Origin: a virus
Lineage: Duplodnaviria > Heunggongvirae > Uroviricota > Caudoviricetes
Reading direction: 5' to 3' (one strand)
DNA length: 22,048 bases
Virus record (IMG/VR): IMGVR_UViG_3300030444_000103
Span: 1-22,048 of that record
Of this stretch, positions 3,696-17,185 are shown piece after piece (within the stretch, counting starts at the first letter, position 1; each line of letters begins with the position of its first letter). Made by a program: the position numbers and the translations under genes. The notes beneath the pieces are model-generated. The model made no database searches, was not told where the DNA came from, and worked only from the letters and a program-made list of their open reading frames with translations.

Positions 3696-4137
3696 GTGCA
3701 CCGGCAACCATTCTTGATATGTGCTGTGGCAGCCGCATGTTCTGGTTCGATAAGTCTGACGAACGGGCGATATTTAGCGATATCAGAAAAGAAGGATACA
3801 CATTACGCAATGGGAGACGCTTGATTATCAGCCCTGACATTATCGCAGATTTTCGTGCATTATCATTTGCAGACGCATCTTTTTCGATGGTTGTATTAGA
3901 CCCTCCGCATCTTGAGCGTGTTGGTGATAACGCCTGGATGGGAAAGAAATATGGACGGCTGAATAAAGATGCCTGGCGTGATGATTTGCGACAGAGATTT
4001 AAAGAAGCTTTTCGGGTGTTGAGGCCGCACGGCGTTCTGATTTTTTAATGGAATGAAACGCAAATACCGGTAAGCCAGATTCTGGCACTGACAGATAGAA
4101 AGCCTGTTATCTGTCAACGAACAGGGAAAAAACGATA
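3692..4137 (+). pseudogene. DNA methyltransferase (DPPY/DPPH-motif type), frameshifted at a T6 run
   Basis: 118-aa ORF containing VVLDPPH ends at TAA within TTTTTT (4041-4046); the next frame continues open (WNETQIPVSQILALTDRKPVICQRTGKKR) to about 4137; no SAM-binding motif follows, so the gene is truncated. Confidence 0.5.
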
Positions 4138-4310
4138 AAACCCACTGGATTATTTTTATGAAAGAGGCATCCAGTGAGTAGATTCGTAAGGTTACAGATA
4201 CGTATATCTGAATAATTAAATTCAGTTCTGTAAATAAAACTTAATCCTTAACCGGATGGATTTCTGCACCCTCAGAACATCAGGAGGCCGCCCGAAAGGG
4301 CGGTAGTGAA

Positions 4311-4493
4311 ATGCGAAAGTTCAAAATTATTATTGAAACGGGAATAGCTGGTGGAGATTTTGAGGATGTATTCGAAGTGGACGATGACGCAACACCTGAT
4401 GAAATTCATGACGGAGCATAAGAAATTTTCTTTAACTACTGCAATTACTCATACCACGAAATAAAAGACGATGAGGAAGAACAAAGTGGCTGA
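4311..4493 (+). pseudogene. Short ORF with an in-frame TAA at 4419-4421
   Basis: Hand translation: MRKFKIIIETGIAGGDFEDVFEVDDDATPDEIHDGA, stop, then EIFFNYCNYSYHEIKDDEEEQSG. Confidence 0.3.
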
Positions 4494-4662
4494 TTTTTGT
4501 TCAGCTAAATATAACATCAGTTTTGAAGAGCGGGATGAACTATTAATGGACTATGGTGAGTTACGCGGTGGAAGTGCTGCTGATGTCGAATCCTAGCGTG
4601 ATGACTATGAAGCGGGAAAAACTCCGGTCGAAGCATATTGTGATGAGTGGGGCGATGAATGA
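4471..4662 (+). pseudogene. Short ORF with an in-frame TAG at 4594-4596
   Basis: Hand translation: MRKNKVADFCSAKYNISFEERDELLMDYGELRGGSAADVES, stop, then RDDYEAGKTPVEAYCDEWGDE; its TGA overlaps the next ATG (ATGA). Confidence 0.3.
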
Positions 4663-4946
4663 GCGAGATTAATTATCAGGAAGGGCATGAAACGGCGGGG
4701 CAAGCAAAACCAGTGACATGGCGATATCGCTACGTGAAAAAAGGCGTTACGGACTTTCAGGGGAAGTAGTGGTCTGGTGACTGGAAATATGTACCGAAAA
4801 AAGAGGATTGTAACGACAGGCCGAACTATCAAATTCAGGCCTTATTCACTGCCTCACCAGTCCCGGTTACATCAGAAGAATTGGTTAAAGCTGTGCACTT
4901 TTATGAACAACTAAAACGCGAAAATCCACCAACATCCGGCAACTAG
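4659..4946 (+). pseudogene. Short ORF with an in-frame TAG at 4767-4769
   Basis: Hand translation: MSEINYQEGHETAGQAKPVTWRYRYVKKGVTDFQGK, stop, then a 58-codon open stretch WSGDWKYVPKKEDCNDRPNYQIQALFTASPVPVTSEELVKAVHFYEQLKRENPPTSGN. Confidence 0.3.
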
Positions 4947-5200
4947 ATTAATGGGTTAACTATGTCGGTTAAACGACCAGCCAACTGAAAAAGCGGAAAC
5001 CTGATTACAGGTTGCCAGATAAGGCAATGAGCTACCTGGCGCGGAACGGACTGATAAGTATGGGGAATGTTTTACGATGAACCTTTAGACTAAAGAGTTT
5101 GTAACGCTATGTAAGTGATTTTTTCTGGTTTAGATATTTATATGTCCGGCCAAATTGAGGTGTGTTTAAATGTAATTGCACATTGATTGTAGGAGGAATA

Positions 5201-5380
5201 ATGAAAAACGCATTGCAGTTTTTGTTTGTTGCGTTCTGGTTGTTCGCATCATGTATGCCCATCATCTTCACAGCAAGGTATATGGAAAAAGTTGATGTTT
5301 TGATATTAATATTTGGATATATAAATGCCCTTTTTTTAGGGGTGTTCATGGCGGTCATGTGCATTGAATACTGGCGGTAA
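5201..5380 (+). CDS. Small hydrophobic (two-helix) membrane protein, 59 aa
   Basis: Strong SD AGGAGG 5 nt before ATG 5201 (inside track ORF 5162..5380); MKNALQFLFVAFWLFASCMPIIFTARYMEKVDVLILIFGYINALFLGVFMAVMCIEYWR; sits in an AT-rich island. Confidence 0.45.
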   Translation: MKNALQFLFVAFWLFASCMPIIFTARYMEKVDVLILIFGYINALFLGVFMAVMCIEYWR

Positions 5381-5559
5381 ATACAGCGAATTCCATTGGT
5401 TTAGTTGGATATTTACTGTGCTGGACAAAAACGGTTTGCGGGGAAATCTTAGTTAAGTAGAATGACTGCGGGTGCTTGAGGCTATCTGCCTCGGGCACGA
5501 ACACCAACGGCAGGTAGAGAAAAGCCCCAGTTAACATTACGCGTCCTGCAAGACGCTTA

Positions 5560-5640
5560 ACATTAATCTGAGGCCAATTTCATGCCAGACACATGTAGGT
5601 TAGCCTCTTACGTGCCGAAAGGCAAGGAGAAGCAGGCTAT
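5560..5640 (+). pseudogene. hok/gef-family 5' region remnant, cut at the start codon
   Basis: GCCTCTTACGTGCCGAAAGGCAAGGAGAAGCAGGCTAT matches the recalled hokC-type leader and SD and resembles the intact hokD start at 8941-8958; the coding sequence is absent after the start-codon position. Confidence 0.4.
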
Positions 5641-7127
5641 TGTTAACACCAAGCTGTAATGTCCCCTTTGAACCATTCTAAAATGTCCCCAGACAATTCT
5701 CTGGGGGATTTTTCATGACCAAAGAAACTGTTACGATGAGTCATAAGGAACTCCACCGACTTCAGATTATTCAGGAGTCAATTAATCGACATATTACTCA
5801 GGAACAAGCTGCGGCACGCATTGGCATTTCTATTCGGCAGGTTAAACGTCTGGTGCAACGGTATAGAAATGAAGGGCCTTCTGGTCTGGTTTCCCACCGA
5901 CGTGGAAAGCGTCCTAATAATTCCTTTTCTACTGAATTCAGAGCAACAGTAATTTTACTCCTCAAAGGCCGTTACGCTGATTTTGGACCTACGTTTGCGT
6001 GCGAAAAATTGCGCGAGATACACGGTTTATCTTTATCCGTTGAAACTCTCAGAAAGTGGATGATAGAAGAGGGGGGTATGGCGTGAACGCCGTCGTAAAA
6101 TTGCCCGTATATATCAACGCCGCATGCGACGACCATCTTACGGTGAACTGATCCAGATTGATGGCTCACCTCATGACTGGTTTGAAAATCGAGGCCCCAG
6201 ATGTACACTGATCGTTTTCATTGATGATGCCACCAGTGCGTTGATGGCGTTGCGTTTTGTGCCTGCTGAAACAACCCGGGCTTACATGGAAACCCTCCGG
6301 GGTTACCTTAATGATCATGGCGTACCGCTCGCTCTCTACTCTGATAGACACAGTATATTCAGGGTAAATAACCCAGAGCGGGAAGGTGAGCTGACCCAGT
6401 TCACTCGTGCGATAAAGACACTGGGCATCGAGCCAATCCATGCCAACAGCCCGCAGGCAAAAGGGCGGGTAGAGCGCGCCAATCAGACACTACAGGACAG
6501 GCTGGTCAAAGAAATGCGGCTTCAGAATATCAGTGATATTGAAACAGCAAATGCATGGTTGCCGACCTTTATTGAAGCCTATAACAACCGGTTCGCTACG
6601 TCGCCTCGTACTACTGATAATGCTCATCTTGATGTGCACCATTCTGAAGAGGAACTGGGTTATATCTTCAGCCTACAGGCGAAGCGCGTTCTGTCTAAAA
6701 ATCTCACTTTCCAGTACAAAAGCAGTGCGTTTCAGGTACGCAGTGAGGGCCGGGGATATCGACTTAGGCATTCGGTTGTTACTGTATGCGAGAACTTTGA
6801 CGGTGAAATTAACGTTCTGTATGACGGGAAAGCGCTGGGCTGGGAAAAGTATGTTGATGGCCCGGAGCCTATACCACTGGATGATGAAAAGAGTGTCCAT
6901 GAACGAGTGGATAATGCCCGTATTGATTTACGCTCAAAATACTATGTTAAACCTAAAGCTGACCATCCCTGGCTTACGCGCCGAACGCAAAGTCATCAGC
7001 AAGTTAAGCCCCCGAAGTTACCTAAAAAGAAGCCTGATCCCGATAAAAAAGATTGAAACCAAGATCGATTCGGTTGAGTGCATATCCATTCATAGGGTAG
7101 ATTCTTAAGTCGCGTTTCTGGTGTTCA
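5641..7127 (+). mobile_element. Insertion sequence with a DDE (rve) transposase, IS481/ISNCY-like; boundaries approximate
   Basis: Begins where hok homology ends; candidate imperfect terminal inverted repeats TGTTAACACCA (left) and TGAACACCA (right, reverse complement); no clear target-site duplication. Confidence 0.4.
5715..7056 (+). pseudogene. DDE transposase split into two ORFs by a frameshift in a G6 run (6071-6076)
   Basis: ORF 5715..6086 carries the N-terminal HTH; ORF 6124..7056 carries the integrase core; the alternative frame across the G run reads ...EEGVWRERRRKIARIYQRRMRRPSYGELIQ..., joining them. Confidence 0.7.
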
Positions 7128-7492
7128 TTTTCGGGTGGTTTGTTACTTGTTTTACCGGGGATATGCCAGAAACGCGCTGAGTCAGTCTGGGCGGTGCGCG
7201 TAATGAGGCGTTATGGTAAATAGCCTATGCTAATGTCCGCTAAGAGCAAGAAGCGGAAGTTGGCAGTTTTGTGGACTGTCCCCACAAAAGTGACTACAGA
7301 AATAGTTGCAATTCATAATTGATCATGGGTTGTCAGTTAAACTCGTGGCGATTTAAATAGACTAATTGGGAGTGCGTCCATTACTTATATCTTGTAATGT
7401 TAACTATCAGAAATGATACAAAGATAATATGTCTTTAAAGAAAAGGCTGATGGCGAAAAGTGGCCCGATGAGGGCCACAATACGGCTGTCAC

Positions 7493-7825
7493 TTAGACGT
7501 AAATATCAATGGTGCCAGCGGTATTTGTATCGTCTTTTTTCTCTTCTTTTTTATCAGGCTGAACTGTCGCGTCTTTATTCTTTTTCTCTGCCTGCTGCCT
7601 TAACAACTGCTCCAGTTGAGCCCTGAGGCTTTCAATTTGCTTCTGTACCAATGCAGCCATTTCTTTTTTCTGCTGTGTCGTCATCCCCTCTTCCGATGAG
7701 ATTTTCCCAAGCTTTTCAGTCAGCACCTGAATTTGTCTTGTGATTTTGGCTATTTCTGATGTTCCTTCCGGGGCGGAGTTGTTTGAAATAACGGTTGAGG
7801 TATTTCCCTGAATTGTGACAGACAT
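7493..7825 (-). CDS. flxA: FlxA-like protein (110 aa)
   Basis: 110-aa coiled-coil-like ORF matching the recalled size and context of Qin flxA; preceded by a sigma-28 promoter match. Confidence 0.65.
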   Translation of the reverse strand: MSVTIQGNTSTVISNNSAPEGTSEIAKITRQIQVLTEKLGKISSEEGMTTQQKKEMAALVQKQIESLRAQLEQLLRQQAEKKNKDATVQPDKKEEKKDDTNTAGTIDIYV

Positions 7826-7848
7826 AGATTTCTCCTTTTAAAAAAGCA

Positions 7849-7875
7849 CTATCGGCATGCACAAAAAAATCTTTA
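7849..7875 (-). promoter_or_regulatory. Sigma-28 (FliA) promoter for flxA
   Basis: Minus strand reads TAAAGATT-N11-GCCGATAG against consensus TAAAGTTT-N11-GCCGATAA, about 25 nt upstream of the start codon. Confidence 0.6.
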
Positions 7876-8320
7876 ATCGTATTTCTTGTGTCATTAATTG
7901 TTTGATGTTCAGATTGTTTTCCTCGCGGGCTGGCGCGCCTCAGAAAGTAAAGCTTGTTGACAGGGGTAAACGTTCGGCAATAATTTTCTGCCGCATGCGG
8001 GTGTTGCATAAAACGTGCTACGTTCCTTTATCGACAGGTCAGGTCACCGCTCACCCGCCGACGAGAAAGCAACACTGACATGCTAAAGCAAAAAATAGAT
8101 GAATAAGTTGAGTTGTGCATATGTAGCCTGACCGTCACAAAGTATATGGTGTCTGTACCAGTAAGATGATGGCCGGACTCTTTAAAAACGAGCTGACCTG
8201 CACAATACAGGATGGACTTAGCAATGGCTGCTCCTGGCACAAAGCGGACAGTGATCACCGTTCTTACGACTACTTTCTGACTTCCTTCGTGACTTGCCCT
8301 AAGCATGTTGTAGTGCGATA

Positions 8321-8346
8321 CTTGTAATGACATTTGTAATTACAAG
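8321..8346 (+). promoter_or_regulatory. relBE operator-like palindrome (relO)
   Basis: CTTGTAATGACATTTGTAATTACAAG just upstream of relB; matches the known pattern of TTGTAAT/ATTACAA repeats. Confidence 0.5.
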
Positions 8347-8357
8347 AGGTGTAAGAC

Positions 8358-8597
8358 ATGGGTAGCATTAACCTGCGTATTGACGATGAACTTAAAGCGC
8401 GTTCTTACGCCGCGCTTGAAAAAATGGGTGTAACTCCTTCTGAAGCGCTTCGTCTCATGCTCGAGTATATCGCTGACAATGAACGCTTGCCGTTCAAACA
8501 GACACTCCTGAGTGATGAAGATGCTGAACTTGTGGAGATAGTGAAAGAACGGCTTCGTAATCCTAAGCCAGTACGTGTGACGCTGGATGAACTCTGA
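8358..8597 (+). CDS. relB: RelB antitoxin
   Basis: 79 aa, MGSINLRIDDELKARSYAALEKMGVTPSEALRLMLEYIADNERLPF...; stop overlaps the relE ATG (TGATG). Confidence 0.85.
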   Translation: MGSINLRIDDELKARSYAALEKMGVTPSEALRLMLEYIADNERLPFKQTLLSDEDAELVEIVKERLRNPKPVRVTLDEL

Positions 8598-8884
8598 TGG
8601 CGTATTTTCTGGATTTTGACGAGCGGGCACTAAAGGAATGGCGAAAGCTGGGCTCGACGGTACGTGAACAGTTGAAAAAGAAGCTGGTTGAAGTACTTGA
8701 GTCACCCCGGATTGAAGCAAACAAGCTCCGTGGTATGCCTGATTGTTACAAGATTAAGCTCCGGTCTTCAGGCTATCGCCTTGTATACCAGGTTATAGAC
8801 GAGAAAGTTGTCGTTTTCGTGATTTCTGTTGGGAAAAGAGAACGCTCGGAAGTATATAGCGAGGCGGTCAAACGCATTCTCTGA
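8597..8884 (+). CDS. relE: RelE mRNA-interferase toxin
   Basis: 95 aa, MAYFLDFDERALKEWRKLGSTVREQLKKKLVEVLESPRIEANKLRGMPDCYKIKLRSSGYRLVYQVIDEKVVVFVISVGKRERSEVY... Confidence 0.85.
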   Translation: MAYFLDFDERALKEWRKLGSTVREQLKKKLVEVLESPRIEANKLRGMPDCYKIKLRSSGYRLVYQVIDEKVVVFVISVGKRERSEVYSEAVKRIL

Positions 8885-8955
8885 ACCAAAGCATGACATC
8901 TCTGTTTCGCACCGAAGGTGACACTTCTGCTTTGCGTTGACAGGAGAAGCAGGCT

Positions 8956-9111
8956 ATGAAGCAGCAAAAGGCGATGTTAATCGCCCTGATCGTCATCTGT
9001 TTAACCGTCATAGTGACGGCACTGGTAACGAGGAAAGACCTCTGCGAGGTACGAATCCGAACCGGCCAGACGGAGGTCGCTGTCTTCACAGCTTACGAAC
9101 CTGAGGAGTAA
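8956..9111 (+). CDS. hokD: HokD (RelF) type I toxin, 51 aa
   Basis: Hand translation: MKQQKAMLIALIVICLTVIVTALVTRKDLCEVRIRTGQTEVAVFTAYEPEE; below the ORF-track cutoff. Confidence 0.85.
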   Translation: MKQQKAMLIALIVICLTVIVTALVTRKDLCEVRIRTGQTEVAVFTAYEPEE

Positions 9112-9178
9112 GAGACCCGGCGGGGGAGAAATCCCTCGCCACCTCTGATGTGGCAGGCATCCTCAACGCACCCGCACT

Positions 9179-9207
9179 TAACCCGCTTCGGCGGGTTTTT
9201 GTTTTTA
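9179..9207 (+). terminator. Rho-independent terminator after hokD
   Basis: ACCCGCTTCGGCGGGT hairpin followed by a T-run. Confidence 0.6.
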
Positions 9208-9327
9208 TTTTCAACGCGTTTGAAGTTCTGGACGGTGCCGGAATAGAATCAAAAATACTTAAGTAGCGCGCAGGGATAAGAGGGATGGTCCCTTAAAGGG
9301 GAGAGCTAATTATCCGGAAGGATTCTG

Positions 9328-9579
9328 ATGATGAACATCGAAGAACTGCGTAAAATTTTTTGTGAAGATGGCCTCTATGCTGTGTGCGTTGAAAATGGAA
9401 ATCTTGTTAGTCATTACCGCATTATGTGTTTGCGAAAGAATGGGGCTGCGTTAATTAATTTTGTGGATGCTCGGGTCACGGACGGATTTATCTTGCGCGA
9501 AGGTGAGTTTGTCACTTCATTACAGGCATTGAAAGAGATCGGAATAAAAGCTGGCTTTTCTGCTTTTTCAGGAGAATAA
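9328..9579 (+). CDS. Rem-like small prophage protein (83 aa)
   Basis: ORF with GGAAGGA SD; size and position after hokD match Qin rem; the rem sequence itself is not recalled. Confidence 0.5.
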   Translation: MMNIEELRKIFCEDGLYAVCVENGNLVSHYRIMCLRKNGAALINFVDARVTDGFILREGEFVTSLQALKEIGIKAGFSAFSGE

Positions 9580-9645
9580 ACTCATCTACAATCTTGCGCG
9601 GGGCTGAACTCCCGCTGAGTAACACCGTGCCACCGGAGAAAACCG

Positions 9646-9924
9646 ATGGCACGCAACGCAAAATATTACAATTCTGATAATTCGCCCGTTCTTGCCTGCA
9701 CGCACGGGCGGTATTCTCACGCATTCAAGTCTGAATGGTTCCAGCACCCTCCATGCACTGCAGAACAGGCCGAATGGCTGATTCATTCTTACCGCAGGCG
9801 CGGGTTCGAGGTTAAGAAAGCTCTCAGTCTCGACTATCGGCACTGGATAATCTCTGTCAGGCTGCCTTATTCCGAACGCCCACCACGTGCGTCCCGCACT
9901 TTCCAGCAACGGATCTGGAGGTAA
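9646..9924 (+). CDS. Hypothetical protein (92 aa), translationally coupled to the next gene
   Basis: GGAGAAAACCG before the ATG; TAA at 9922-9924 is followed 1 nt later by the GTG start of the downstream gene. Confidence 0.4.
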   Translation: MARNAKYYNSDNSPVLACTHGRYSHAFKSEWFQHPPCTAEQAEWLIHSYRRRGFEVKKALSLDYRHWIISVRLPYSERPPRASRTFQQRIWR

Positions 9925-9925
9925 C

Positions 9926-10975
9926 GTGCGGGTATTACTTAGACCTGTTCTGGTGCCTGAGCTTGGGCTGGTGGTCCTTAAGCCGGGCCGTGAATCCATA
10001 CAGATATTTCATAATCCTCGAGTGCTGGTGGAACCGGAACCAAAAAGCATGCGTAATCTGCCATCCGGAGTCGTTCCTGCCGTTCGCCAGCCGCTGGCGG
10101 AAGACAAAACATTGCTGCCGTTTTTTAGTAACGAACGGGTGATTCGTGCTGCTGGCGGCGTTGGCGCATTGTCCGACTGGCTATTACGTCATGTTACATC
10201 CTGCCAGTGGCCTAATGGCGATTACCATCACACTGAAACAGTCATTCACCGTTATGGTACCGGCGCAATGGTGTTGTGCTGGCACTGCGACAACCAACTG
10301 CGTGACCAGACATCGGAATCACTGGAGCTGCTTGCTCAACAAAATCTGACAGCATGGGTGATTGACGTCATCCGTCACGCAATAAGCGGTACGCAGGAGC
10401 GGGAATTATCTTTGGCTGAATTATCCTGGTGGGCGGTCTGCAATCAGGTGGTGGATGCACTACCTGAGGCTGTATCGCGTCGTTCGCTGGGATTACCAGC
10501 GGAAAAAATCTGCTCGGTGTACCGCGAAAGCGACATCGTACCGGGAGAGCAGACCGCCACCAGCATATTGAAACAACGCACAAAAAATCTTGCACCGTTG
10601 CCTTACGCCCACCAGCAACAAAAATCACCACAGGAAAAGACGGTGGTAAGCATCACCGTTGATCCAGAGTCTCCGGAATCTTTCATGAAGCTGCCTAAAC
10701 GTCGCCGCTGGGTTAAGGAGAAATACACACGTTGGGTTAAGACACAGCCGTGTGCTTGCTGCGGTATGCCAGCCGACGATCCGCATCATCTGATTGGTCA
10801 CGGGCAGGGCGGAATGGGAACAAAAGCACATGATCTCTTTGTGTTGCCTTTGTGCAGAAAGCATCACAACGAGCTGCATACGGATACAGTGGCATTTGAA
10901 GATAAGTATGGCTCCCAACTGGAGCTGATATTTCGTTTTATCGATCGCGCGCTGGCAATTGGCGTACTGGCGTAA
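9926..10975 (+). CDS. YdfU-like DUF968 protein with a C-terminal Cys/His (HNH-like) motif, 349 aa
   Basis: Track ORF 9887..10975; GTG at 9926 after GGAGGT; C-terminus ...QPCACCGMPADDPHHLIGHGQGGMGTKAHDLFVLPLCRKHHNELH... Confidence 0.6.
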   Translation: MRVLLRPVLVPELGLVVLKPGRESIQIFHNPRVLVEPEPKSMRNLPSGVVPAVRQPLAEDKTLLPFFSNERVIRAAGGVGALSDWLLRHVTSCQWPNGDYHHTETVIHRYGTGAMVLCWHCDNQLRDQTSESLELLAQQNLTAWVIDVIRHAISGTQERELSLAELSWWAVCNQVVDALPEAVSRRSLGLPAEKICSVYRESDIVPGEQTATSILKQRTKNLAPLPYAHQQQKSPQEKTVVSITVDPESPESFMKLPKRRRWVKEKYTRWVKTQPCACCGMPADDPHHLIGHGQGGMGTKAHDLFVLPLCRKHHNELHTDTVAFEDKYGSQLELIFRFIDRALAIGVLA

Positions 10976-10988
10976 GTGGAGAACGAGC

Positions 10989-11741
10989 ATGAACCTTGAA
11001 GCCTTACCAAAATATTACTCCCCAAAATCTCCAAAATTGAGCGATGACGCTCCAGCGACAGGCACCGGTTGTTTAACAATTACGGATGTAATGGCAGCGC
11101 AGGGGATGGTGCAGTCGAAAGCACCACTTGGGTTGGCCTTATTTCTGGCAAAAGTTGGTGTTCAGGACCCTCAGTTTGCGATTGAAGGCCTGCTAAATTA
11201 CGCGATGGCACTGGATAACCCGACATTGAACAAATTGAGTGAAGAAATCCGGTTACAGATTATTCCTTACCTCGTGAGTTTTGCCTTTGCTGATTACTCC
11301 AGGTCTGCGGCAAGTAAGGCTCGCTGTGAGCATTGTTCAGGTACGGGATTTTATAATGTATTGCGCGAAGTGGTGAAACACTACAGACGCGGGGAATCTG
11401 TAATCAAGGAAGAATGGGTGAAGGAACTATGTCAGCATTGCCATGGTAAGGGCGAAGCCAGCACAGCGTGCAGAGGGTGTAAGGGTAAAGGGATTGTTCT
11501 GGATGAAAAAAGAACCCGGTTTCATGGCGTACCGGTATATAAGATTTGTGGGCGTTGTAATGGAAACCGGTTTAGTCGTTTACCGACCACGCTGGCACGA
11601 CGTCATGTCCAGAAGCTGGTACCAGACCTGACCGATTATCAGTGGTATAAGGGGTATGCGGACGTCATTGGTAAACTGGTAACAAAGTGCTGGCAGGAAG
11701 AAGCATACGCGGAAGCGCAATTGAGGAAGGTGACGAGATAA
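10989..11741 (+). CDS. Late-gene antiterminator Q (phage 82 / QuuQ-like), 250 aa
   Basis: Track ORF 10959..11741 with ATG 10989 after GGAG; several CxxC pairs; size and sequence match the recalled Qin QuuQ. Confidence 0.8.
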   Translation: MNLEALPKYYSPKSPKLSDDAPATGTGCLTITDVMAAQGMVQSKAPLGLALFLAKVGVQDPQFAIEGLLNYAMALDNPTLNKLSEEIRLQIIPYLVSFAFADYSRSAASKARCEHCSGTGFYNVLREVVKHYRRGESVIKEEWVKELCQHCHGKGEASTACRGCKGKGIVLDEKRTRFHGVPVYKICGRCNGNRFSRLPTTLARRHVQKLVPDLTDYQWYKGYADVIGKLVTKCWQEEAYAEAQLRKVTR

Positions 11742-11772
11742 ATGATTTTTGCTGAAGATGGCGACATGATGT

Positions 11773-11801
11773 TTGCATTTTTCAAAAAATATGGATAAAA
11801 T
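11773..11801 (+). promoter_or_regulatory. pR'-like late promoter
   Basis: TTGCAT-N17-TAAAAT immediately downstream of Q. Confidence 0.55.
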
Positions 11802-11846
11802 TTTTTCAACGATGGGCTTTGTATACCCGACGTTAAGAAAAAGTAG

Positions 11847-11872
11847 AAAACCCGCTGATGAGCGGGTTTTGT
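11847..11872 (+). terminator. tR'-like intrinsic terminator
   Basis: AAAACCCGCT-GATG-AGCGGGTTTT hairpin about 45 nt downstream of the promoter -10. Confidence 0.6.
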
Positions 11873-12162
11873 GCTTTAAATGGGGCAATGGTAATGTTGA
11901 ATCTCATCCCGGGACTCATGTCTGTTAACTTATTATTTAGCTGGTGACTTGGTTATTTGCCTGATGTTTAAAATGTTTTCTTCCAGTACAATGTCCCTAA
12001 ACACAATGAGTCTGCTTATTATATTATTAGCAGAGCTATTACGGCCAAAGTACAGCATAAGCTTTTAAAGCCAATCAACCAGTCATCAAGACAGACGGGG
12101 TTATTCATAAAAACTCTCCATGTGTGATCCGATGGGGCCTGAAATTAAAGCTTTAATATAGC

Positions 12163-12375
12163 TCATGAAAGGTAAACATTGGCAGCTGAAGGGCCACGCA
12201 GACCATTTATCCGGCAAAATTCCACGCGTAATCCGGTGGTAATTTCTTCTGCATCGCGGAGATTGAGCGCTGAGACATGAAGCTGGACATCGATACGACC
12301 ATCGGATGGGGTGATAAGACCCTTGCCGCTTTTGCCGTCAAAGGTTTTGACAATTCCTGTCATTTTACGGGACAA
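12163..12375 (-). CDS. cspF: Cold-shock-domain protein, CspF/CspH-like
   Basis: 70 aa, [26 protein letters not shown]...[16 protein letters not shown]. Confidence 0.8.
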
Positions 12376-12675
12376 AAAAATTCCTTAATACTGATAACTT
12401 GGCGCACTATACACACGTTCCTGAAGAAAGCTATAGTTTTTTGATGGGGTTGAAGATGGCTGGATGTCTAAAATAAACATTGCTTCATATGTTCAACTAT
12501 GCGTTAATGATTGCGTCGGTTTGAAGAACAGACGATATACGAAGTAGTTTACTAAAGCAGTTCTCATTTCAGGTGTTATTCACTTATTCCTTCTTTGAGT
12601 CTCTCCAATTAAGTACGAAGTCGTTTCTGTTATGCAAACCATTTATGCCGAAAGGCTCAAGTTAAGGAATGTAGA

Positions 12676-12891
12676 ATGTCAAATAAAATGACTGGTTTAG
12701 TAAAATGGTTTAACGCTGATAAAGGTTTCGGCTTTATTTCTCCTGTTGATGGTAGTAAAGATGTGTTTGTGCATTTTTCTGCGATTCAGAATGATAATTA
12801 TCGAACCTTATTTGAAGGTCAAAAGGTTACCTTCTCTATAGAGAGTGGTGCTAAAGGTCCTGCAGCAGCAAATGTCATCATTACTGATTAA
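12676..12891 (+). CDS. cspB: Cold-shock protein, CspB-like
   Basis: 71 aa, [38 protein letters not shown]...; divergent from the cspF-like gene. Confidence 0.85.
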
Positions 12892-13173
12892 AATTCATCG
12901 CTCGTCTGTATACGATAACGAAGAAGGCTGATGCCTGAGTAGAGATACGGACAGAGTAGTGAATATTGGATCTCTTTAATAAAAAGTAAGGAGGTCCAAT
13001 ACATGAAACAATGGCTAGCATATTTGGCAAAATCTTAATCAGGAAAAGTATGCTAACCATTGTGGTGAAGTGCAGGTTTGCTGCATGAATAGTTTTACAG
13101 CAGAAGCTAACTGCTGGCATGGCAAAACAAAGTGCGTAAGTGGATGACTCCCACAAAAAGCACCACAATCTCA

Positions 13174-13197
13174 AACCCGCTCAGGCGGGTTTTTTAT
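13174..13197 (+). terminator. Intrinsic terminator
   Basis: AACCCGCTCAGGCGGGTT hairpin followed by TTTTTT. Confidence 0.55.
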
Positions 13198-13254
13198 TAT
13201 CTGCTTTAAATATATTATTAAAATATAAAAAATACTTGTTACTAATAAAATCAA

Positions 13255-13425
13255 TCAGGCTACAGCTTTAAGATTTGTCTGGAATACTTTGTTGCAATGA
13301 GGGCAGATCAAAAGGGCACCTTTTTGTACTCTTGAAAAACTGTGTTCTGACTCTTGGGTGCAGTTTGGGCAGGAACATTTAACGAGATAATTACGGCGTG
13401 ATTTTGAGTTTTTACGTTCTGACAT
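13255..13425 (-). CDS. Small zinc-ribbon protein (56 aa)
   Basis: Internal ATG of track ORF 13255..13476 with AGGAAA SD; MSERKNSKSRRNYLVKCSCPNCTQ...ICPHCNKVF carries paired Cys motifs. Confidence 0.4.
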   Translation of the reverse strand: MSERKNSKSRRNYLVKCSCPNCTQESEHSFSRVQKGALLICPHCNKVFQTNLKAVA

Positions 13426-13644
13426 AGGCTTTTCCTGTATAAATGGCCGTATACAGTACACTAAATATGAAAACATTTCTCGTATTATTATTTTATATAT
13501 GACTTTCTTTCAAAATAATTACCCACATTTTTAATGTGTATGTTTTTTTAGCGCCGTTGAGAACAACGTGTGCTGTCAAAACTACCCCGTAGACTCCGAT
13601 CTTTTCAAACATATTGCACCATCCGTGTACATCGGGGTGAGGAT

Positions 13645-13860
13645 ATGAAATCAATGGATAAGTTAACAACAGGTGTTGCCTATGGCACATCGGCGGGTAA
13701 TGCTGGTTTCTGGGCATTGCAGTTACTCGATAAAGTAACTCCGTCACAGTGGGCTGCAATCGGTGTGCTGGGTAGCCTGGTTTTTGGCCTGCTGACGTAT
13801 CTGACAAATCTTTATTTCAAGATTAAAGAAGACAGGCGTAAGGCTGCGAGAGGAGAGTAA
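13645..13860 (+). CDS. Pinholin (phage 21 S-like), 71 aa, dual-start motif
   Basis: [71 protein letters not shown] after GGGGTGAGG; close to recalled S21. Confidence 0.8.
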
Positions 13861-13864
13861 TCCA

Positions 13865-14172
13865 ATGACTCAAGACTATGAACTGGTTGTGAAAGGAGTC
13901 CGTAATTTTGAGAATAAAGTTACGGTAACTGTAGCCTTACAGGACAAAGAACGCTTTGACGGTGAAATTTTTGACCTGGATGTCGCCATGGACCGTGTTG
14001 AAGGAGCTGCGCTGGAGTTTTATGAGGCAGCAGCCAGAAGGAGCGTCCGGCAAGTCTTCCTGGAAGTAGCAGAAAAATTGTCAGAAAAAGTTGAGTCTTA
14101 TCTGCAGCATCAGTACTCCTTTAAGATTGAAAATCCTGCCAATAAGCACGAGCGTCCTCATCATAAATATAT

Positions 14173-14176
<4 letters not shown>
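13865..14176 (+). CDS. YdfR-like hypothetical protein (103 aa) between holin and endolysin
   Basis: 103-aa ORF; its stop overlaps the endolysin ATG (ATGA); same size and position as ydfR in Qin. Confidence 0.55.
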
Positions 14177-15200
<1,024 letters not shown>

Positions 15201-15563
15201 GGTAATATTAAATCGGAACATTTACATCGCGGAATGTAAAATTTAAATAAAAAGGACTCTTCCATGAGCCAAAATTCCTGAAATCTTAAGGGTAAGATAA
15301 AAGGTCTTAATCAGAATGACACGTTATTATTAATAAATAAAGCTATTCTTTCATTGCTGTGTTTTTCTTTACAAAAGTAATCCTTGCTATGGGTGGTTAA
15401 TCATGCGTTAATGGTGTTCTGGTTTGTTACAAATTTATCTGAAGCAGTCATTGTTATAATTTTATTATTTGTACCTCTTGAGATTTCCTTGTTGGTTTTT
15501 CTCTCTGATATTTTTTTTCGGACCATTCTGCCCAAGGGCTAATTTCTTCAAAAGGTAATAATT

Positions 15564-15776
15564 ATGTCTAACAAAATGACTGGTTTAGTGAAATGGTTTA
15601 ACCCTGAAAAAGGTTTTGGTTTCATCACGCCGAAAGATGGCAGCAAAGATGTGTTTGTCCATTTCTCAGCAATTCAGAGCAACGATTTCAAAACATTAAC
15701 TGAGAATCAGGAAGTTGAATTTGGTATTGAGAACGGACCTAAAGGTCCTGCCGCTGTTCATGTAGTGGCGCTTTGA
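15564..15776 (+). CDS. cspI: Cold-shock protein, CspI-like
   Basis: 70 aa, [45 protein letters not shown]...; long AT-rich 5' leader. Confidence 0.8.
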
Positions 15777-15981
15777 GGTAGACAATATTACAAACCATAT
15801 TCACTTTAGATGCCCGTGTTGTCATGGTTCCCAGTATAGAACATCATCTTTTGATGTTTCTGACATGAATCCTTTCGGGGCAAAATGTATCTTTTGTAAA
15901 TCAATGATGATTACATTTGATAATATTTCACAATACTTAAATGCCAGCCGTCTGTCGTTGGATTTAAAAAAGTGAAAATGA

Positions 15982-16003
15982 AGGCTCCTTCGGGAGCTTT
16001 TTT
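15982..16003 (+). terminator. Intrinsic terminator
   Basis: AGGCTCC-TTCG-GGAGCTT hairpin followed by TTTTTT. Confidence 0.5.
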
Positions 16004-16047
16004 GCTTGGTATCTATTCGATGGATACTCACATACTACGGTAACATC

Positions 16048-16278
16048 ATGAAAAAAATCATAGTTTTTTTTAACTCTGAACCTGCAGTGGTAGTGCCAGC
16101 GATGACTGGAGTTAACACCATCATGCGTGAATATCCAAATGGCGAAAAAACACACCTTACTGTAATGGCCGCAGGGTTTCCATCTCTGACCGGAGATCAT
16201 AAAGTCATTTATGTAGCCGCGGATCGACATGTTACTTCAGAAGAAATTCTGGAAGCAGCAATAAGGCTCTTGAGTTGA
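16048..16278 (+). CDS. Hypothetical protein (76 aa)
   Basis: ATG inside track ORF 16006..16278; weak RBS. Confidence 0.35.
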   Translation: MKKIIVFFNSEPAVVVPAMTGVNTIMREYPNGEKTHLTVMAAGFPSLTGDHKVIYVAADRHVTSEEILEAAIRLLS

Positions 16279-16449
16279 TTTGATGCTATTGTATTGATAA
16301 TTCAGGAAAATTTTCTTTGTCTGTTTGTGTAAAATTTAGACTATCGTATGTTGATTATTGCGATGTTTCATCTTATCTTTTACACGTTTGCACCATATAA
16401 TCGACTTACTGTGTAACTGGAAAGTCATAACAGACTAAAAGAGGAAATG

Positions 16450-16623
16450 ATGAATATTGAAAACTTAAAAACAAAAGCAGAAGCAGATATTTCTGAATAT
16501 ATAACAAAAAAAATTATTGAACTTAAGAAAAAGACCGGGAAAGAAGTTACCAGTATTCAGTTTACCGCACGGGAAAAAATGACGGGTCTTGAAAGCTATG
16601 ATGTCAAGATTAATTTAATCTGA
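16450..16623 (+). CDS. gnsB: GnsA/GnsB-family protein (57 aa)
   Basis: Hand translation MNIENLKTKAEADISEYITKKIIELKKKTGKEVTSIQFTAREKMTGLESYDVKINLI, close to recalled GnsB; below the ORF-track cutoff. Confidence 0.75.
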   Translation: MNIENLKTKAEADISEYITKKIIELKKKTGKEVTSIQFTAREKMTGLESYDVKINLI

Positions 16624-16774
16624 TGTATTCAATAATAAAATTTATCCATAAACCTCGTTTTTACGGGGTTTTGTTATATTTGAATGGTTCCGAATATCTA
16701 AATCACAATTGTTGATGGTTTTTATTAAACCAATGCAGTCCGGCTCAGGAGTGAGAGAAGCCGGACGTTATGGT

Positions 16775-17185
16775 TTAGCGTGGTAAGATCTGTGTAGTTT
16801 TCTGGATGCTTTCAGTAAATAGTAATGAATTATCAAAGGTATAGTAATATCTTTTTTGTTCGTGGATATTTGTAACCCACCGAAAAACTCCTGCTTTAGC
16901 AAGGTTTCTTCTGTATTCCTGAAATGTGATCTCTCTGGATTTCAGCTTATTAGAGGTCGTTTCTATAAGATGCCTATCCTTTGAAAATTTGACAGACACA
17001 ATGTTTTTTAGGCCCTTTAATAACACTGTATTATCATTTTTTAATACAATATGAACATTCTCTGTGGCTAAATAGTAAATGTAATGTGAGACATTGTGAC
17101 GTTTTAGCTCAGAATAAAACCATTGATAGTTTAAATCGTTTCGAACTTTATCAAATATTTGTTTAAAAATGACTACCTGATCCAT
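16775..17185 (-). CDS. YdfO/YbcV-like DUF1398 prophage protein
   Basis: Track ORF 16775..17200; internal ATG at 17185 with GGAAGG SD gives 136 aa. Confidence 0.6.

What the first reader, a model, noticed from the sequence alone, without database searches (positions are those of the whole stretch)
9646..10975. DUF968 protein with an HNH-like Cys/His cluster, coupled to an upstream small ORF, just before Q
The 349-aa protein ends in CxCC...HH...H...C...HH, resembling a metal-dependent nuclease fold; its GTG start lies 1 nt after the stop of a 92-aa ORF. Its function is unknown.
Basis: partly seen in the sequence, partly recalled or inferred. Interest (0 to 1): 0.35.

Follow-up and report, generated by a model that had tools for sequence, protein, structure and literature searches.

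The report
Prophage YdfU: uncharacterised HNH nuclease
This is the known but never tested E. coli prophage gene ydfU, which very probably encodes a zinc-dependent DNA-nicking enzyme that lambda-like phages make just before switching on their late genes; the small gene in front of it is not a dedicated partner.

Summary
A 349-aa ORF (9926-10975, GTG) starts 1 nt after the stop of a 92-aa ORF (9646-9924) and ends 13 nt before antiterminator Q (10989-11741). It is ydfU of a Qin-type prophage, 100% identical to E. coli K-12 strains, Pfam DUF968 (E 1e-76).

The C-terminal Cys/His cluster is a zinc-finger HNH (His-Me finger) module. This was already published: Jablonska 2017 names YdfU. Its profile aligns with three relatives: phage PhiNM1 Gp16, an experimentally shown RecA-dependent nickase (hhalign 94.5%, E 8e-8, all seven residues that paper mutated or named match); YbcO/3G27; and P1 Ref.

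Four points go beyond the finding:
- Residues 1-225 form a confidently modelled domain with a second, fully conserved zinc tetrad (C93, C/H101, C118, H/C121) and no detectable fold relative.
- P1 PdcB is a full-length homologue whose catalytic histidines are lost.
- Across 37 dereplicated homologue groups, a late-gene activator (Q of at least four Pfam families, or P1 Lpa) lies downstream in 26. RusA lies nearby in 22 and NinG in none.
- The small ORF's 66-aa core family precedes NinG, YbcO+RusA or RusA+YdfU elsewhere.

Most likely function: a delayed-early nickase acting on recombination or replication intermediates. No experiment exists. Low novelty.

The parts
9560..9920 (+). C-rich, G-poor stretch covering the leader and the 92-aa ORF. 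It is a candidate loading region for the Rho-dependent terminator reported upstream of ydfU.
   Evidence: The C/G ratio is 1.3-1.65 here, against about 0.5 in rem and about 0.7 in the 5' part of ydfU. PMC9160355 ranks the terminator upstream of Qin ydfU among the strongest Rho-dependent terminators in vivo. Its supplement shows ydfU, but not rem, higher in a five-column data table. The exact terminator position was not read, so the link is an inference.
9646..9924 (+). 92-aa ORF, annotated as a hypothetical protein (WP_012304870.1).
   Evidence: ATG start with GGAGA 7 nt upstream. RefSeq annotates it. The 90-92-aa form is kept in frame across Escherichia/Shigella variants at 63-99% identity. 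It matches PHROG 1212 at E 1.7e-35, function unknown.
9724..9924 (+). Conserved 66-aa core of the small ORF (residues 27-92). It is modelled as a beta-alpha-beta-beta mini-domain followed by a basic tail.
   Evidence: Only residues 26/27-92 align with homologues outside Escherichia, which are 66-68-aa proteins in Salmonella, Citrobacter, Klebsiella, Yersinia and Edwardsiella phages. In the AF2 model residues 28-75 have pLDDT about 89 and residues 1-23 are below 50. No significant PDB fold match was found; the best E is 0.18.
9918..9922 (+). Shine-Dalgarno GGAGG for ydfU, lying inside the last codons of the upstream ORF.
   Evidence: Read directly from the sequence. The junction is conserved in 83 of 83 Qin-type loci.
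9926..10975 (+). ydfU: 349 aa, GTG start, member of the DUF968 family.
   Evidence: Pfam PF06147 E 1.4e-76. The DNA is 100% identical to the ydfU region of K-12-derived strains C600 and J53. The start is fixed by the alignment of 28 homologues.
9926..10600 (+). N-terminal domain, residues 1-225. It is family-specific and has no recognisable fold relative.
   Evidence: AF2 pLDDT is mostly 82-94. No Pfam model covers residues 1-159. The only PDB and BFVD matches of any weight were to the C-terminal module. hhalign against YbcO, Ref, NinG, RusA and Gp16 gave nothing. The median pI is 6.5.
10202..10288 (+). Second zinc-type ligand tetrad, with ligands C93, H101, C118 and C121, inside a beta-hairpin plus helix.
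   Evidence: In 39 aligned homologues: C93 in 38 of 38 ungapped sequences, position 101 is C or H in 38 of 39, C118 in 39 of 39, position 121 is H or C in 39 of 39, W119 in 38 of 39 and D122 in 36 of 39. Position 102 is variable. The model has strands at 105-110 and 113-118 and a helix at 119-125.
10601..10690 (+). Flexible linker, residues 226-255.
   Evidence: pLDDT is below 50 for residues 228-240 and pTM is 0.55. Homologue alignments are length-variable here.
10691..10972 (+). C-terminal zinc-finger HNH (His-Me finger) nuclease module, residues 256-349.
   Evidence: hhalign of the family profile: Gp16 94.5%, E 8e-8; YbcO/3G27 84.9%, E 6e-6; Ref 76.3%, E 2e-5. BFVD fold matches to about 110-aa stand-alone DUF968 proteins reach E 2.6e-7 with TM 0.76. 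The median pI is 8.8.
10751..10879 (+). HNH core motifs: C276xxC279, H287-H288, D303, C310xxH313, H314 and H318.
   Evidence: Conservation in 39 homologues: C276 39, C279 30, H287 35, H288 36, D303 39, C310 32, position 313 H or C 30, H314 35, H318 35. The motifs are collinear with Gp16 C145/C148, H157, C181, H184, H185 and H189, the residues named and (all but C145) mutated in PMC12817073.
10989..11741 (+). ydfT/quuQ, the late-gene antiterminator Q. It is the conserved downstream neighbour.
   Evidence: Pfam PF03589 E 3.6e-54. A late-gene activator lies within 1.9 kb downstream in 26 of 37 homologue clusters.

Best explanation
The ORF is ydfU of a Qin-type lambdoid prophage, and it encodes a two-domain, probably two-zinc protein.

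Supported directly by computation here (no experiment was done):
- The C-terminal 94 residues are a zinc-finger HNH/His-Me-finger nuclease module with every catalytic and zinc-binding residue intact.
- This module is homologous to three known modules: S. aureus phage PhiNM1 Gp16 (a RecA-stimulated nickase), P1 Ref (a RecA-dependent nuclease that cuts D-loops) and YbcO (PDB 3G27).
- A disordered linker ties it to a 225-residue N-terminal domain. That domain has its own conserved Cys/His zinc tetrad and no detectable fold relative.

Inferred:
- The protein is a delayed-early (nin-region) function made from the rightward early transcript just before the late-gene activator.
- The HNH module nicks or cleaves DNA. 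H288 would be the general base, and H314/H318 would hold the catalytic metal.
- The substrate is branched or recombination-type DNA (D-loops, forks, junctions). This would help phage replication, recombination and clearing of branches before packaging.
- It works alongside RusA rather than replacing it.
- The N-terminal domain supplies the substrate or partner specificity.

Expression and the small ORF:
- In the lysogen the gene is kept silent by a strong Rho-dependent terminator upstream.
- The 92-aa ORF in front is a separate nin-region gene. It is translationally coupled to whatever gene follows it.
For: Identity:
- 100% DNA identity to ydfU of K-12 strains.
- Pfam DUF968 at E 1.4e-76.

HNH module:
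- PHROG 96 'HNH endonuclease', E 3e-171.
- Pfam HNHc_6 E 6.3e-6 and RecA_dep_nuc E 3.7e-3.
- Profile against Gp16: 94.5%, E 8e-8 over 65 columns. The mapping is C145/C148/H157/C181/H184/H185/H189 to C276/C279/H288/C310/H313/H314/H318.
- Gp16 itself passes the DUF968 gathering cut-off, 29.1 bits against 27.8.
- Gp16 is experimentally a nickase stimulated by RecA, is expressed early, and is needed for efficient phage DNA replication (PMC12817073).
- Profile against YbcO/3G27: 84.9%, E 6e-6. Against Ref: 76.3%, E 2e-5.
- The AF2 model (pLDDT 86) has strands 285-288 and 306-309 followed by helix 311-319.
- BFVD matches to small DUF968/HNH proteins reach E 2.6e-7.
- Every PDB match with probability above 0.1 is an HNH nuclease: IscB, HNH-Cascade, Cap5 and Gme.
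- The catalytic residues are conserved in 35-36 of 39 homologues.
- Published classification: His-Me finger group 7, naming YdfU.

Genomic context:
- In 37 clusters at 85% identity, Q or P1 Lpa lies within 1.9 kb downstream in 26. The Q proteins match PF03589, PF06323, PF06530 and DUF1133.
- RusA lies within the flanks in 22 of 37 clusters, often with 1-4-nt start/stop overlaps in either gene order.
- NinG was found in 0 of 37 clusters.
- The same small ORF family is followed by NinG in Gifsy-2, by YbcO+RusA in mEp237 and by RusA+YdfU in Chris1. This places YdfU in the recombination-nuclease slot of the nin region.

Silencing: PMC9160355 reports a strong Rho-dependent terminator upstream of ydfU. 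The 9560-9920 stretch is C-rich and G-poor.
Against: - No experiment on YdfU, PdcB or YbcO was found in the searchable literature. Nuclease activity and substrate are therefore inferred.
- PDB fold matches to HNH domains are not significant (best E 0.69), and 3G27 was not retrieved.
- PDB sequence and profile searches found no homologue; the single phmmer match (E 0.32, peptide N-glycanase) is chance.
- The P1 PdcB clade keeps the whole architecture but has lost H287/H288 and H314/H318. At least part of the family therefore works without HNH catalysis.
- P1 pdcB is dispensable for plaque formation.
- YdfU frequently coexists with RusA, so it is not simply an alternative resolvase.
- The N-domain gives no clue to the substrate.
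- The NinG exclusion rests on a single NinG seed sequence.
- In 11 of 37 clusters no late activator was recognised downstream with my seed set.
Confidence: 0.55

Rival explanations
1. YdfU is specifically a RecA-dependent nuclease of the Ref/Gp16 type. It would cut only DNA bound by, or invaded through, RecA filaments. This would include the host chromosome, so it would suppress host replication and feed phage replication.
For: The only two characterised relatives of this HNH module are both RecA-dependent: Ref (PMC4330346 and PMC3973344, found) and Gp16. Profile similarity is 94.5% to Gp16 and 76% to Ref. Pfam RecA_dep_nuc gives E 3.7e-3.
Against: The parts of Ref and Gp16 outside the HNH core are absent. 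Ref has a basic, disordered N-terminus and Gp16 has a NinB/Orf-like N-domain. YdfU has a different, near-neutral 225-aa domain with no similarity to either. The Pfam scores for both families fall below their gathering cut-offs. Nothing here tests RecA binding.
Confidence: 0.2
2. The family's conserved role is non-catalytic, for example DNA binding, scaffolding or regulation ahead of late transcription. On this view the HNH site is an ancestral feature that is dispensable.
For: P1 PdcB and related representatives (P0211, P0266) keep full-length homology (E 1e-40) but lack the HH and H..H motifs. The position next to unrelated late activators is more conserved than any neighbouring recombination gene. 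The N-domain zinc tetrad is more strictly conserved than the HNH zinc ligands.
Against: The catalytic histidines are kept in 35-36 of 39 diverse homologues, including the window copy. That argues for selection on catalysis in the lambdoid branch. No helix-turn-helix or other regulatory domain was detected. Stand-alone HNH-only DUF968 proteins exist in many phages.
Confidence: 0.1
3. YdfU is a prophage-encoded conflict nuclease. It would act in superinfection exclusion, in anti-phage or anti-satellite defence, or as a toxin, and the lysogen would retain it for its own benefit.
For: In this window it sits downstream of the relBE and hokD toxin-antitoxin modules. Homologous DNA is in 91% of complete E. 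coli genomes, with up to 11 places per genome. PMC9160355 groups the terminator before ydfU with those that suppress toxic prophage genes.
Against: PADLOC found no defence-system model; the best hit has E 0.078. The gene is silenced by Rho in the lysogen rather than expressed. Its constant place inside the early-to-late operon of functional phages such as mEp460, Stx phages and P1 points to a lytic-cycle role. The toxin-antitoxin neighbours are peculiar to the Qin type: other clusters have antirepressors, methylases or RusA upstream.
Confidence: 0.08
4. The 92-aa ORF is a dedicated partner of YdfU, such as an inhibitor, an immunity protein or a specificity subunit, and that is why the two are translationally coupled.
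For: The stop and start are 1 nt apart, and the SD lies inside the upstream ORF in 83 of 83 Qin-type loci. The small ORF is conserved and in frame across 63-99% identity.
Against: The core family is directly adjacent to a YdfU homologue in only 2 of 37 clusters. In the six clusters where it was placed upstream within 1.6 kb, RusA lies between them; a ninth cluster carries it elsewhere in the flank. It precedes NinG in Gifsy-2, YbcO+RusA in mEp237, and unrelated genes in PY54. Most YdfU homologues, including P1 PdcB, have no such neighbour. PdcA shows no similarity to it.
Confidence: 0.05
5. YdfU is a terminase-associated HNH factor, like HK97 gp74, that assists cos or pac cleavage during packaging.
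For: HNH proteins are known to act with TerL (introduction of PMC12817073). In P1, pdcB lies two genes upstream of pacA/pacB.
Against: In the window and in lambdoid relatives the gene lies upstream of Q, separated from the terminase by the lysis cassette. The P1 copy near pac is the one that has lost the catalytic histidines. No similarity to gp74-type HNH proteins came up in any search.
Confidence: 0.02

Closest known systems
E. coli K-12 YdfU (Qin prophage), Pfam DUF968 (PF06147), His-Me finger group 7 of Jablonska et al. 2017
   Same: It is the same gene. The DNA is 100% identical over 9300-11000 to K-12 derivatives, with the same annotation. The published prediction of a His-Me finger names YdfU.
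   Different: Nothing differs in sequence. The published classification covers only the C-terminal module. It says nothing on the 225-aa N-domain, its zinc tetrad, the PdcB relationship or the late-activator synteny.
Staphylococcus phage PhiNM1 Gp16 (Pfam HNHc_6, PF16784), a RecA-dependent nickase (PMC12817073)
   Same: The zinc-finger HNH module is homologous (hhalign 94.5%, E 8e-8). CxxC, the catalytic His, CxxH, and the H and H positions all match. Gp16 also scores above the DUF968 cut-off. Both are early or delayed-early phage genes in DNA-metabolism neighbourhoods that include RusA.
   Different: Gp16 is 223 aa with a NinB/Orf-like N-domain. YdfU is 349 aa with an unrelated N-domain. The YdfU score for HNHc_6 is 26.3 bits, just under the 26.6 cut-off, and covers only 58 residues.
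Bacteriophage P1 Ref (Pfam RecA_dep_nuc, PF16786; PDB 3PLW), a RecA-dependent HNH endonuclease
   Same: The HNH core is homologous (hhalign 76%, E 2e-5). It includes PC..C, HH and LPLCR.HH.
   Different: Ref has a 76-residue basic, disordered N-terminus (PMC4330346 abstract) in place of a folded domain. The Pfam score is 17.8 bits against a cut-off of 26.9. Ref sits elsewhere in the P1 genome.
YbcO of prophages DLP12 and 82 (Pfam YbcO/DUF1364, PF07102; PDB 3G27)
   Same: The HNH module is homologous (hhalign 84.9%, E 6e-6, 71 columns). Both sit in the nin region next to RusA and Q.
   Different: YbcO is the 96-aa HNH module alone. YdfU adds a 255-residue N-terminal part. Pfam detects no cross-hit between them.
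Bacteriophage P1 PdcB
   Same: It is homologous over its full length (26% identity, E 1e-40, 347 against 349 aa). It is a DUF968 member (E 3.6e-50). It also sits directly upstream of the late-gene activator, Lpa in P1, and downstream of a toxin-antitoxin pair, phd-doc.
   Different: PdcB lacks the HH pair and the H..H pair of the HNH site, and has CxxC where YdfU has CxxH. It is non-essential and of unknown function.
Lambda Rap/NinG, the branch-specific HNH-type endonuclease of the nin region
   Same: It occupies the same genomic slot: after the small 66-aa-family ORF and before Q, in Gifsy-2. It was never found together with a YdfU homologue in 37 clusters. It belongs to the same superfamily in the published classification.
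   Different: There is no significant sequence similarity (hhalign E 0.023 over 18 columns). The architectures differ.

Membership tests
Pfam DUF968 (PF06147) | Score above the curated gathering cut-off of the family HMM. | tested here: met
   256.8 bits against a cut-off of 27.8, E 1.4e-76, covering residues 160-346 and profile positions 1-171 of 171. All 39 aligned homologues also match.
HNH / His-Me finger superfamily | A beta-beta-alpha metal fold: a beta-hairpin followed by a helix that carries the metal ligands. | tested here: inconclusive
   The AF2 model has strands 285-288 and 306-309 and helix 311-319, with pLDDT 94-97 in most of this region. BFVD matches to small DUF968/HNH proteins are significant, E 2.6e-7. 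PDB matches to solved HNH domains are not: the best is IscB at E 0.69, and 3G27 was not retrieved.
HNH / His-Me finger superfamily | A general-base histidine at the end of strand 1, and metal-binding His or Asn residues on the helix. | tested here: met
   H287-H288 are conserved in 35 and 36 of 39 homologues. H314 and H318 are each conserved in 35 of 39. They align with Gp16 H157, H185 and H189.
HNH / His-Me finger superfamily | Metal-dependent nuclease activity. | not testable with these tools
   No biochemical data on YdfU, PdcB or YbcO were found.
HNHc_6 (PF16784) / Gp16-type RecA-dependent nickases | Score above the Pfam gathering cut-off over the whole model. | tested here: not met
   26.3 bits against a cut-off of 26.6. 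Only residues 271-328 match, to profile positions 123-184 of 204.
HNHc_6 (PF16784) / Gp16-type RecA-dependent nickases | A NinB/Orf-like N-terminal domain. | tested here: not met
   The N-domain profile against Gp16 gives E 0.011 over 10 columns. No fold match to NinB 1PC6 appeared among the PDB hits.
HNHc_6 (PF16784) / Gp16-type RecA-dependent nickases | The zinc-finger residues C148, C181 and H184 and the nuclease-centre residues H157, H185 and H189 that PMC12817073 mutated, plus C145 of its CxxC motif. | tested here: met
   C145, C148, H157, C181, H184, H185 and H189 align with C276, C279, H288, C310, H313, H314 and H318.
HNHc_6 / Ref-type nucleases | Dependence on, or stimulation by, RecA. 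| not testable with these tools
   This needs biochemistry or interaction assays.
RecA_dep_nuc (PF16786; P1 Ref) | Score above the Pfam gathering cut-off. | tested here: not met
   17.8 bits against a cut-off of 26.9. Profile-to-sequence similarity of the core only is 76%, E 2e-5.
YbcO / DUF1364 (PF07102) | A Pfam match, with the stand-alone architecture of about 96 aa. | tested here: not met
   No Pfam hit. The architecture differs: 349 aa in two domains. The module-level homology is 84.9%, E 6e-6.
NinG / Rap (PF05766) | Sequence membership in the family. | tested here: not met
   No Pfam hit. hhalign against Gifsy-2 NinG gives E 0.023 over 18 columns.
P1 PdcB orthologous group | Collinear homology over the full length, and position upstream of the late activator. 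| tested here: met
   BLASTP E 1e-40 over residues 1-348. The P1 gene order is phd-doc-pdcA-pdcB-lpa. The HNH catalytic residues differ.
Known anti-phage defence systems (PADLOC) | A match to any defence-protein model. | tested here: not met
   The best hit is PglZ at E 0.078 with no matched stretch.

The most novel reading that the evidence does not exclude
YdfU and PdcB would define a widespread, untested 'pre-late' phage module. In this reading, an orphan zinc-containing N-terminal domain recognises a particular DNA structure or partner such as RecA, RusA or SSB. It delivers a tethered HNH nickase to that target. The gene's near-constant placement directly before late-gene activators of at least four unrelated families (Q types and P1 Lpa) would reflect a functional link. 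For example, the nick could switch replication to the rolling-circle mode, or clear branched DNA just as late genes and packaging begin. The PdcB branch would have kept the targeting function after losing catalysis.
Probability: 0.15. Interest if true: 0.55.

Novelty: already known. Interest (0 to 1): 0.22.

Why it matters
ydfU is one of the still uncharacterised 'y-genes' of E. coli K-12 (PMC11551758). Related DNA is in about 91% of complete E. coli genomes, including many Shiga-toxin phages. The 2026 Gp16 work now provides a characterised relative of its nuclease module. That turns 'DUF968' into a concrete, testable hypothesis: a zinc-dependent nickase acting on recombination or replication intermediates, possibly RecA-guided. 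If confirmed, it would fill in a common accessory function of the lambdoid nin region and of P1. It might also bear on induction and replication of Stx phages. The finding is a re-identification of a known gene with a previously published fold prediction, so it is not in itself a discovery.

Tried and rejected
1. PDB sequence searches with the single protein and with a 39-sequence profile found no homologue. The single-protein search gave one chance match at E 0.32, and the profile search gave none.
2. Foldseek of the full model against the PDB gave nothing at E<=0.001, and nothing for the N-domain. BFVD matched only the C-terminal module.
3. I tested whether the N-terminal C..[CH]H..LCWH[HC]DN block is a duplicated, degenerate copy of the C-terminal HNH. 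hhalign aligned the two collinearly, but with P 0.06-0.08 and probability about 1%. This is not supported.
4. Database proteins that join the YdfU N-domain to other domains might have revealed its role. Instead they carry tail-fibre, tip-attachment J, capsid or portal fragments. They are chimeras from prophage deletions or assembly, not real architectures.
5. NCBIfam and PADLOC gave no informative hit.
6. P1 PdcA shows no similarity to the 92-aa ORF.
7. The AF2 model of the 92-aa ORF searched against the PDB gave only generic beta-alpha-beta-beta matches, E>=0.18.
8. The search for related loci with the diverse alignment failed because it had no conserved 7-10-column stretch. I used single-protein scans instead.
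9. Literature searches for DUF968, ydfU, pdcB, ybcO and DUF1364 found no functional study of this family.
10. The alternative upstream GTG at 9887 (362 aa) was rejected because all homologues start at the 9926 position.
Full report
**1. What is there**

The window carries a Qin-type lambdoid prophage. Positions 6872-17569 are 99.86% identical to the Qin region of E. coli C600. The query 9300-11000 is 100% identical to K-12 derivatives C600 and J53, among others.

The gene order on the + strand is as follows:

| Gene | Coordinates |
|---|---|
| relB | 8358-8597 |
| relE | 8597-8884 |
| hokD | 8956-9111 |
| rem | 9328-9579 |
| 92-aa hypothetical ORF | 9646-9924 |
| ydfU | 9926-10975 |
| ydfT/quuQ (antiterminator Q) | 10989-11741 |

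Every detail in the finding is correct:
- The upstream ORF stops at TAA 9922-9924. One base follows, then GTG at 9926. GGAGG at 9918-9922 lies just upstream.
- The 349-aa start, rather than the earlier in-frame GTG at 9887, is fixed by 28 homologues that all begin M[RK]xLL at that position.
- The junction GGAG(G/A)TAA(C/T)GTG, almost always GGAGGTAACGTG, is kept in all 83 Qin-type loci examined.
- Pfam gives DUF968 at E 1.4e-76.
- The terminal cluster is C276-x-C278-C279, H287-H288, H292, H302, C310, H313-H314 and H318.

**2. The C-terminal cluster is a zinc-finger HNH module, and this was already known**

Pfam gives sub-threshold hits to HNHc_6 (E 6e-6) and RecA_dep_nuc (E 4e-3). PHROG 96 'HNH endonuclease' matches the whole protein at E 3e-171.

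The systematic His-Me finger classification (PMC5714182) places DUF968 and DUF1364 together in its group 7. It names Qin YdfU and YbcO (PDB 3G27), and proposes a role in recombination and repair because the neighbours are RusA, Q and antirepressors.

I aligned 39 homologues at 26-90% identity, drawn from the representative library, and compared the C-terminal profile (residues 245-349) with candidate relatives:

| Compared with | hhalign probability | E-value | Columns |
|---|---|---|---|
| PhiNM1 Gp16 | 94.5% | 8e-8 | 65 |
| YbcO / 3G27 | 84.9% | 6e-6 | 71 |
| P1 Ref | 76.3% | 2e-5 | 55 |
| NinG | not significant | 0.023 | 18 |
| RusA | not significant | 0.17 | 11 |

Gp16 matters because it is experimentally characterised (PMC12817073):
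- It is an early protein and a nickase whose activity RecA enhances.
- It is needed for efficient phage DNA replication.
- Mutating C148, C181 or H184 abolished growth inhibition. Mutations at H157, H185 and H189 weakened the effect but did not abolish it.

These six residues, together with C145 of Gp16's CxxC motif, align one-to-one with YdfU C276, C279, H288, C310, H313, H314 and H318. Gp16 itself clears the DUF968 gathering cut-off.

In the 39 homologues, H287, H288, H314 and H318 are present in 35-36 sequences, and D303, K258 and C276 in all 39.

The AlphaFold2 model has mean pLDDT 86. It shows strand 285-288, strand 306-309 and helix 311-319, which is the beta-beta-alpha arrangement. It matches about 110-aa stand-alone DUF968/HNH phage proteins in BFVD at E 2.6e-7 with TM 0.76. 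Matches to solved HNH domains in the PDB (IscB, HNH-Cascade, Cap5, Gme) are the only ones with appreciable probability, but none is significant; the best E is 0.69. The fold assignment therefore rests mainly on sequence profiles.

**3.

Residues 1-225 are modelled confidently, with pLDDT mostly 82-94. They are joined to the HNH module by a disordered linker (residues 228-240 have pLDDT below 50; pTM is 0.55).

This N-domain contains a second Cys/His set with near-perfect conservation:

| Position | Residue in homologues | Count |
|---|---|---|
| 93 | C | 38 of 38 |
| 101 | C or H | 38 of 39 |
| 118 | C | 39 of 39 |
| 121 | H or C | 39 of 39 |
| 119 | W | 38 of 39 |
| 122 | D | 36 of 39 |

The neighbouring position 102 varies. 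The Cys/His interchange at two positions is what a structural zinc site looks like. The tetrad sits on a hairpin (105-110, 113-118) followed by a helix (119-125).

I asked whether this block is a degenerate duplicate of the C-terminal HNH. hhalign aligns the two collinearly, but with P 0.06-0.08, so this is not supported.

The N-domain has no Pfam, NCBIfam, PDB or BFVD relative. It shows no similarity to NinB/Orf-type domains as represented by Gp16. Database 'fusions' of this domain to other domains are chimeras with tail, capsid or portal fragments. The N-domain is near-neutral (median pI 6.5) and the HNH module is basic (median pI 8.8).

**4. Relatives and context**

P1 PdcB is a full-length homologue: 26% identity, E 1e-40, 347 aa. 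It is a DUF968 member. The P1 gene order is phd-doc-pdcA-pdcB-lpa. So in P1, too, the gene follows a toxin-antitoxin pair and precedes the late-gene activator.

PdcB and its close representatives have lost both histidine pairs of the HNH site. pdcB is dispensable and of unknown function.

I collected about 180 loci, called the YdfU-like ORFs, and clustered them at 85% identity into 37 groups. Neighbours were classified with seed sequences and Pfam:
- **Late-gene activator.** One lies within 1.9 kb downstream in 26 of 37 groups. These belong to PF03589, PF06323, PF06530 and DUF1133-type Q proteins, or to P1 Lpa.
- **RusA.** It is in the flanks in 22 of 37 groups, upstream or downstream, often with 1-4-nt start/stop overlaps.
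- **NinG.** It was found in 0 of 37 groups, using a single seed sequence.
- **Other upstream neighbours.** These are KilA-N, ANT or Rha antirepressors, or DNA methylases.

The conserved feature is therefore the slot: the last or second-last delayed-early gene of the nin region. No particular partner gene is conserved.

**5. The 92-aa ORF**

Only residues 27-92 are conserved outside Escherichia. They correspond to a family of 66-68-aa proteins, PHROG 1212, function unknown.

The 25-residue N-terminal extension is specific to Escherichia and Shigella. It is variable, contains an in-frame 2-codon indel, and is predicted to be disordered. No start codon exists at the position where the short homologues begin, so the long form is the only one that can be translated here.

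The core folds as beta-alpha-beta-beta with pLDDT about 89, and has no significant PDB match.

The family precedes different genes in different phages:

| Phage | Genes after the small ORF |
|---|---|
| Gifsy-2 | NinG |
| mEp237 | YbcO orthologue, then RusA |
| Citrobacter phage Chris1 | RusA, then YdfU |
| PY54 | unrelated genes |

It is directly adjacent to a YdfU homologue in only 2 of 37 clusters. It is a nin-region gene coupled to whatever follows it, not a YdfU partner.

A side observation: 9560-9920 is C-rich and G-poor, with a C/G ratio up to 1.65 against about 0.5 in rem. PMC9160355 lists the terminator upstream of Qin ydfU among the strongest Rho-dependent terminators measured in vivo. 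Its supplementary table shows higher values for ydfU than for rem. This stretch may be the Rho loading region. That would also explain how ydfU and Q are kept silent in the lysogen. The terminator's exact position was not read.

**6. Most likely mechanism**

Established here by computation only:
- The HNH zinc-finger module is intact.
- It is homologous to two nucleases proven to depend on, or be stimulated by, RecA, and to YbcO.
- The protein has a two-domain tethered architecture.
- It holds a conserved delayed-early position next to RusA and the late activator.

Inferred:
- YdfU nicks or cleaves DNA, with H288 as the general base and H314/H318 holding the metal.
- It acts on branched or recombination-type DNA during the lytic cycle, alongside RusA.
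- The N-domain provides targeting.

I put about 0.9 on 'HNH-type nuclease module' and about 0.55 on the whole statement. RecA dependence specifically gets about 0.2. The parts of Ref and Gp16 outside the HNH core are absent from YdfU, and it is not known which parts of Gp16 contact RecA.

The catalytically degenerate PdcB branch is the main warning that the family's conserved role might not be cleavage. Defence, packaging and dedicated-partner readings are less likely for the reasons given under the rival explanations.

**7. Novelty**

The gene, its Pfam family and its HNH/His-Me assignment are all published, so the finding re-identifies a known y-gene. The additions made here are:
- the N-domain zinc tetrad;
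- the PdcB homology, with loss of the active site;
- the residue-level match to the newly characterised Gp16;
- quantified synteny with unrelated late activators;
- decoupling of the small ORF from YdfU.

These sharpen a testable hypothesis but do not change the category. Interest is low to moderate.

Noticed in passing
window 10202-10288 (YdfU residues 93-121): A second Cys/His tetrad (C93, C/H101, C118, H/C121, with W119 and D122) is conserved in essentially all 39 homologues. It is more strictly conserved than the zinc ligands of the HNH module. The domain that carries it has no fold relative.
   Followed up: yes
window 9560-9920: A C-rich, G-poor stretch (C/G up to 1.65) covers the leader and the 92-aa ORF, flanked by G-rich rem and the 5' part of ydfU. 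It coincides with the strong Rho-dependent terminator that PMC9160355 reports upstream of Qin ydfU. The DNA may serve both as a coding region and as a Rho loading site.
   Followed up: partly
L004:2905-3948 (phage P1 pdcB): P1 PdcB is a full-length YdfU homologue (E 1e-40) sitting between phd-doc and lpa. It has lost both histidine pairs of the HNH active site. Two further representatives, P0211 and P0266, show the same loss.
   Followed up: partly
loci L014, L017, L021, L023, L088, L107, L126, L153, L168 (ORF immediately or second downstream of the YdfU homologue): The gene downstream of YdfU homologues is an antiterminator Q from several different Pfam families (PF03589, PF06323, PF06530, DUF1133), or Lpa in P1. 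The position before the late activator is kept although the activator itself is swapped.
   Followed up: yes
phage records behind H63 (LR595868.1) and H69 (KF030445.1): In these records the feature under the YdfU match is annotated 'antitermination protein Q'. This is probably an annotation transferred from the neighbouring gene.
   Followed up: no
proteins P0125, P0145, P0156, P0173, P0187, P0189, P0190, P0256: These database proteins join the YdfU N-terminal region in frame to tail-fibre, tip-attachment J, capsid or portal fragments. They look like deletion junctions in decaying prophages, or assembly chimeras.
   Followed up: partly
window 1-6872 and 17569-22048: The window is not K-12 itself. 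Outside 6872-17569 it departs from the C600 Qin region. Only 1-1146 and 1643-2044 align on the left, and nothing aligns beyond 17569.
   Followed up: partly
window 18451-19844, - strand: A 397-aa ORF (18451-19644) lies next to a tRNA-Arg(CCT) gene (19770-19844). This looks like a prophage end, with an integrase-sized gene beside a tRNA attachment site. The ORF itself was not identified.
   Followed up: no
window 5470-5641, + strand: An Rfam sok antitoxin RNA (99.8 bits) lies in the segment that is absent from the K-12 Qin region. It implies a second hok/sok-type module besides hokD at 8956-9111.
   Followed up: no
window 12515-12907 and 15418-15803, + strand: There are two cspA-type thermoregulator 5' leaders (Rfam RF01766, 158.8 and 112.8 bits). 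They lie in front of the prophage cold-shock genes that correspond to cspB and cspI.
   Followed up: no
L002:2619-4015; also L022, L166, L168, L181, L187; L088, L178 and L183 in the reverse gene order: RusA and the YdfU homologue abut with 0-4-nt spacing or overlaps, or an 11-nt overlap in L178 and L183, in either gene order. A 447-aa database protein (P0055) carries both Pfam domains. This suggests tight co-expression and occasional fusion.
   Followed up: partly
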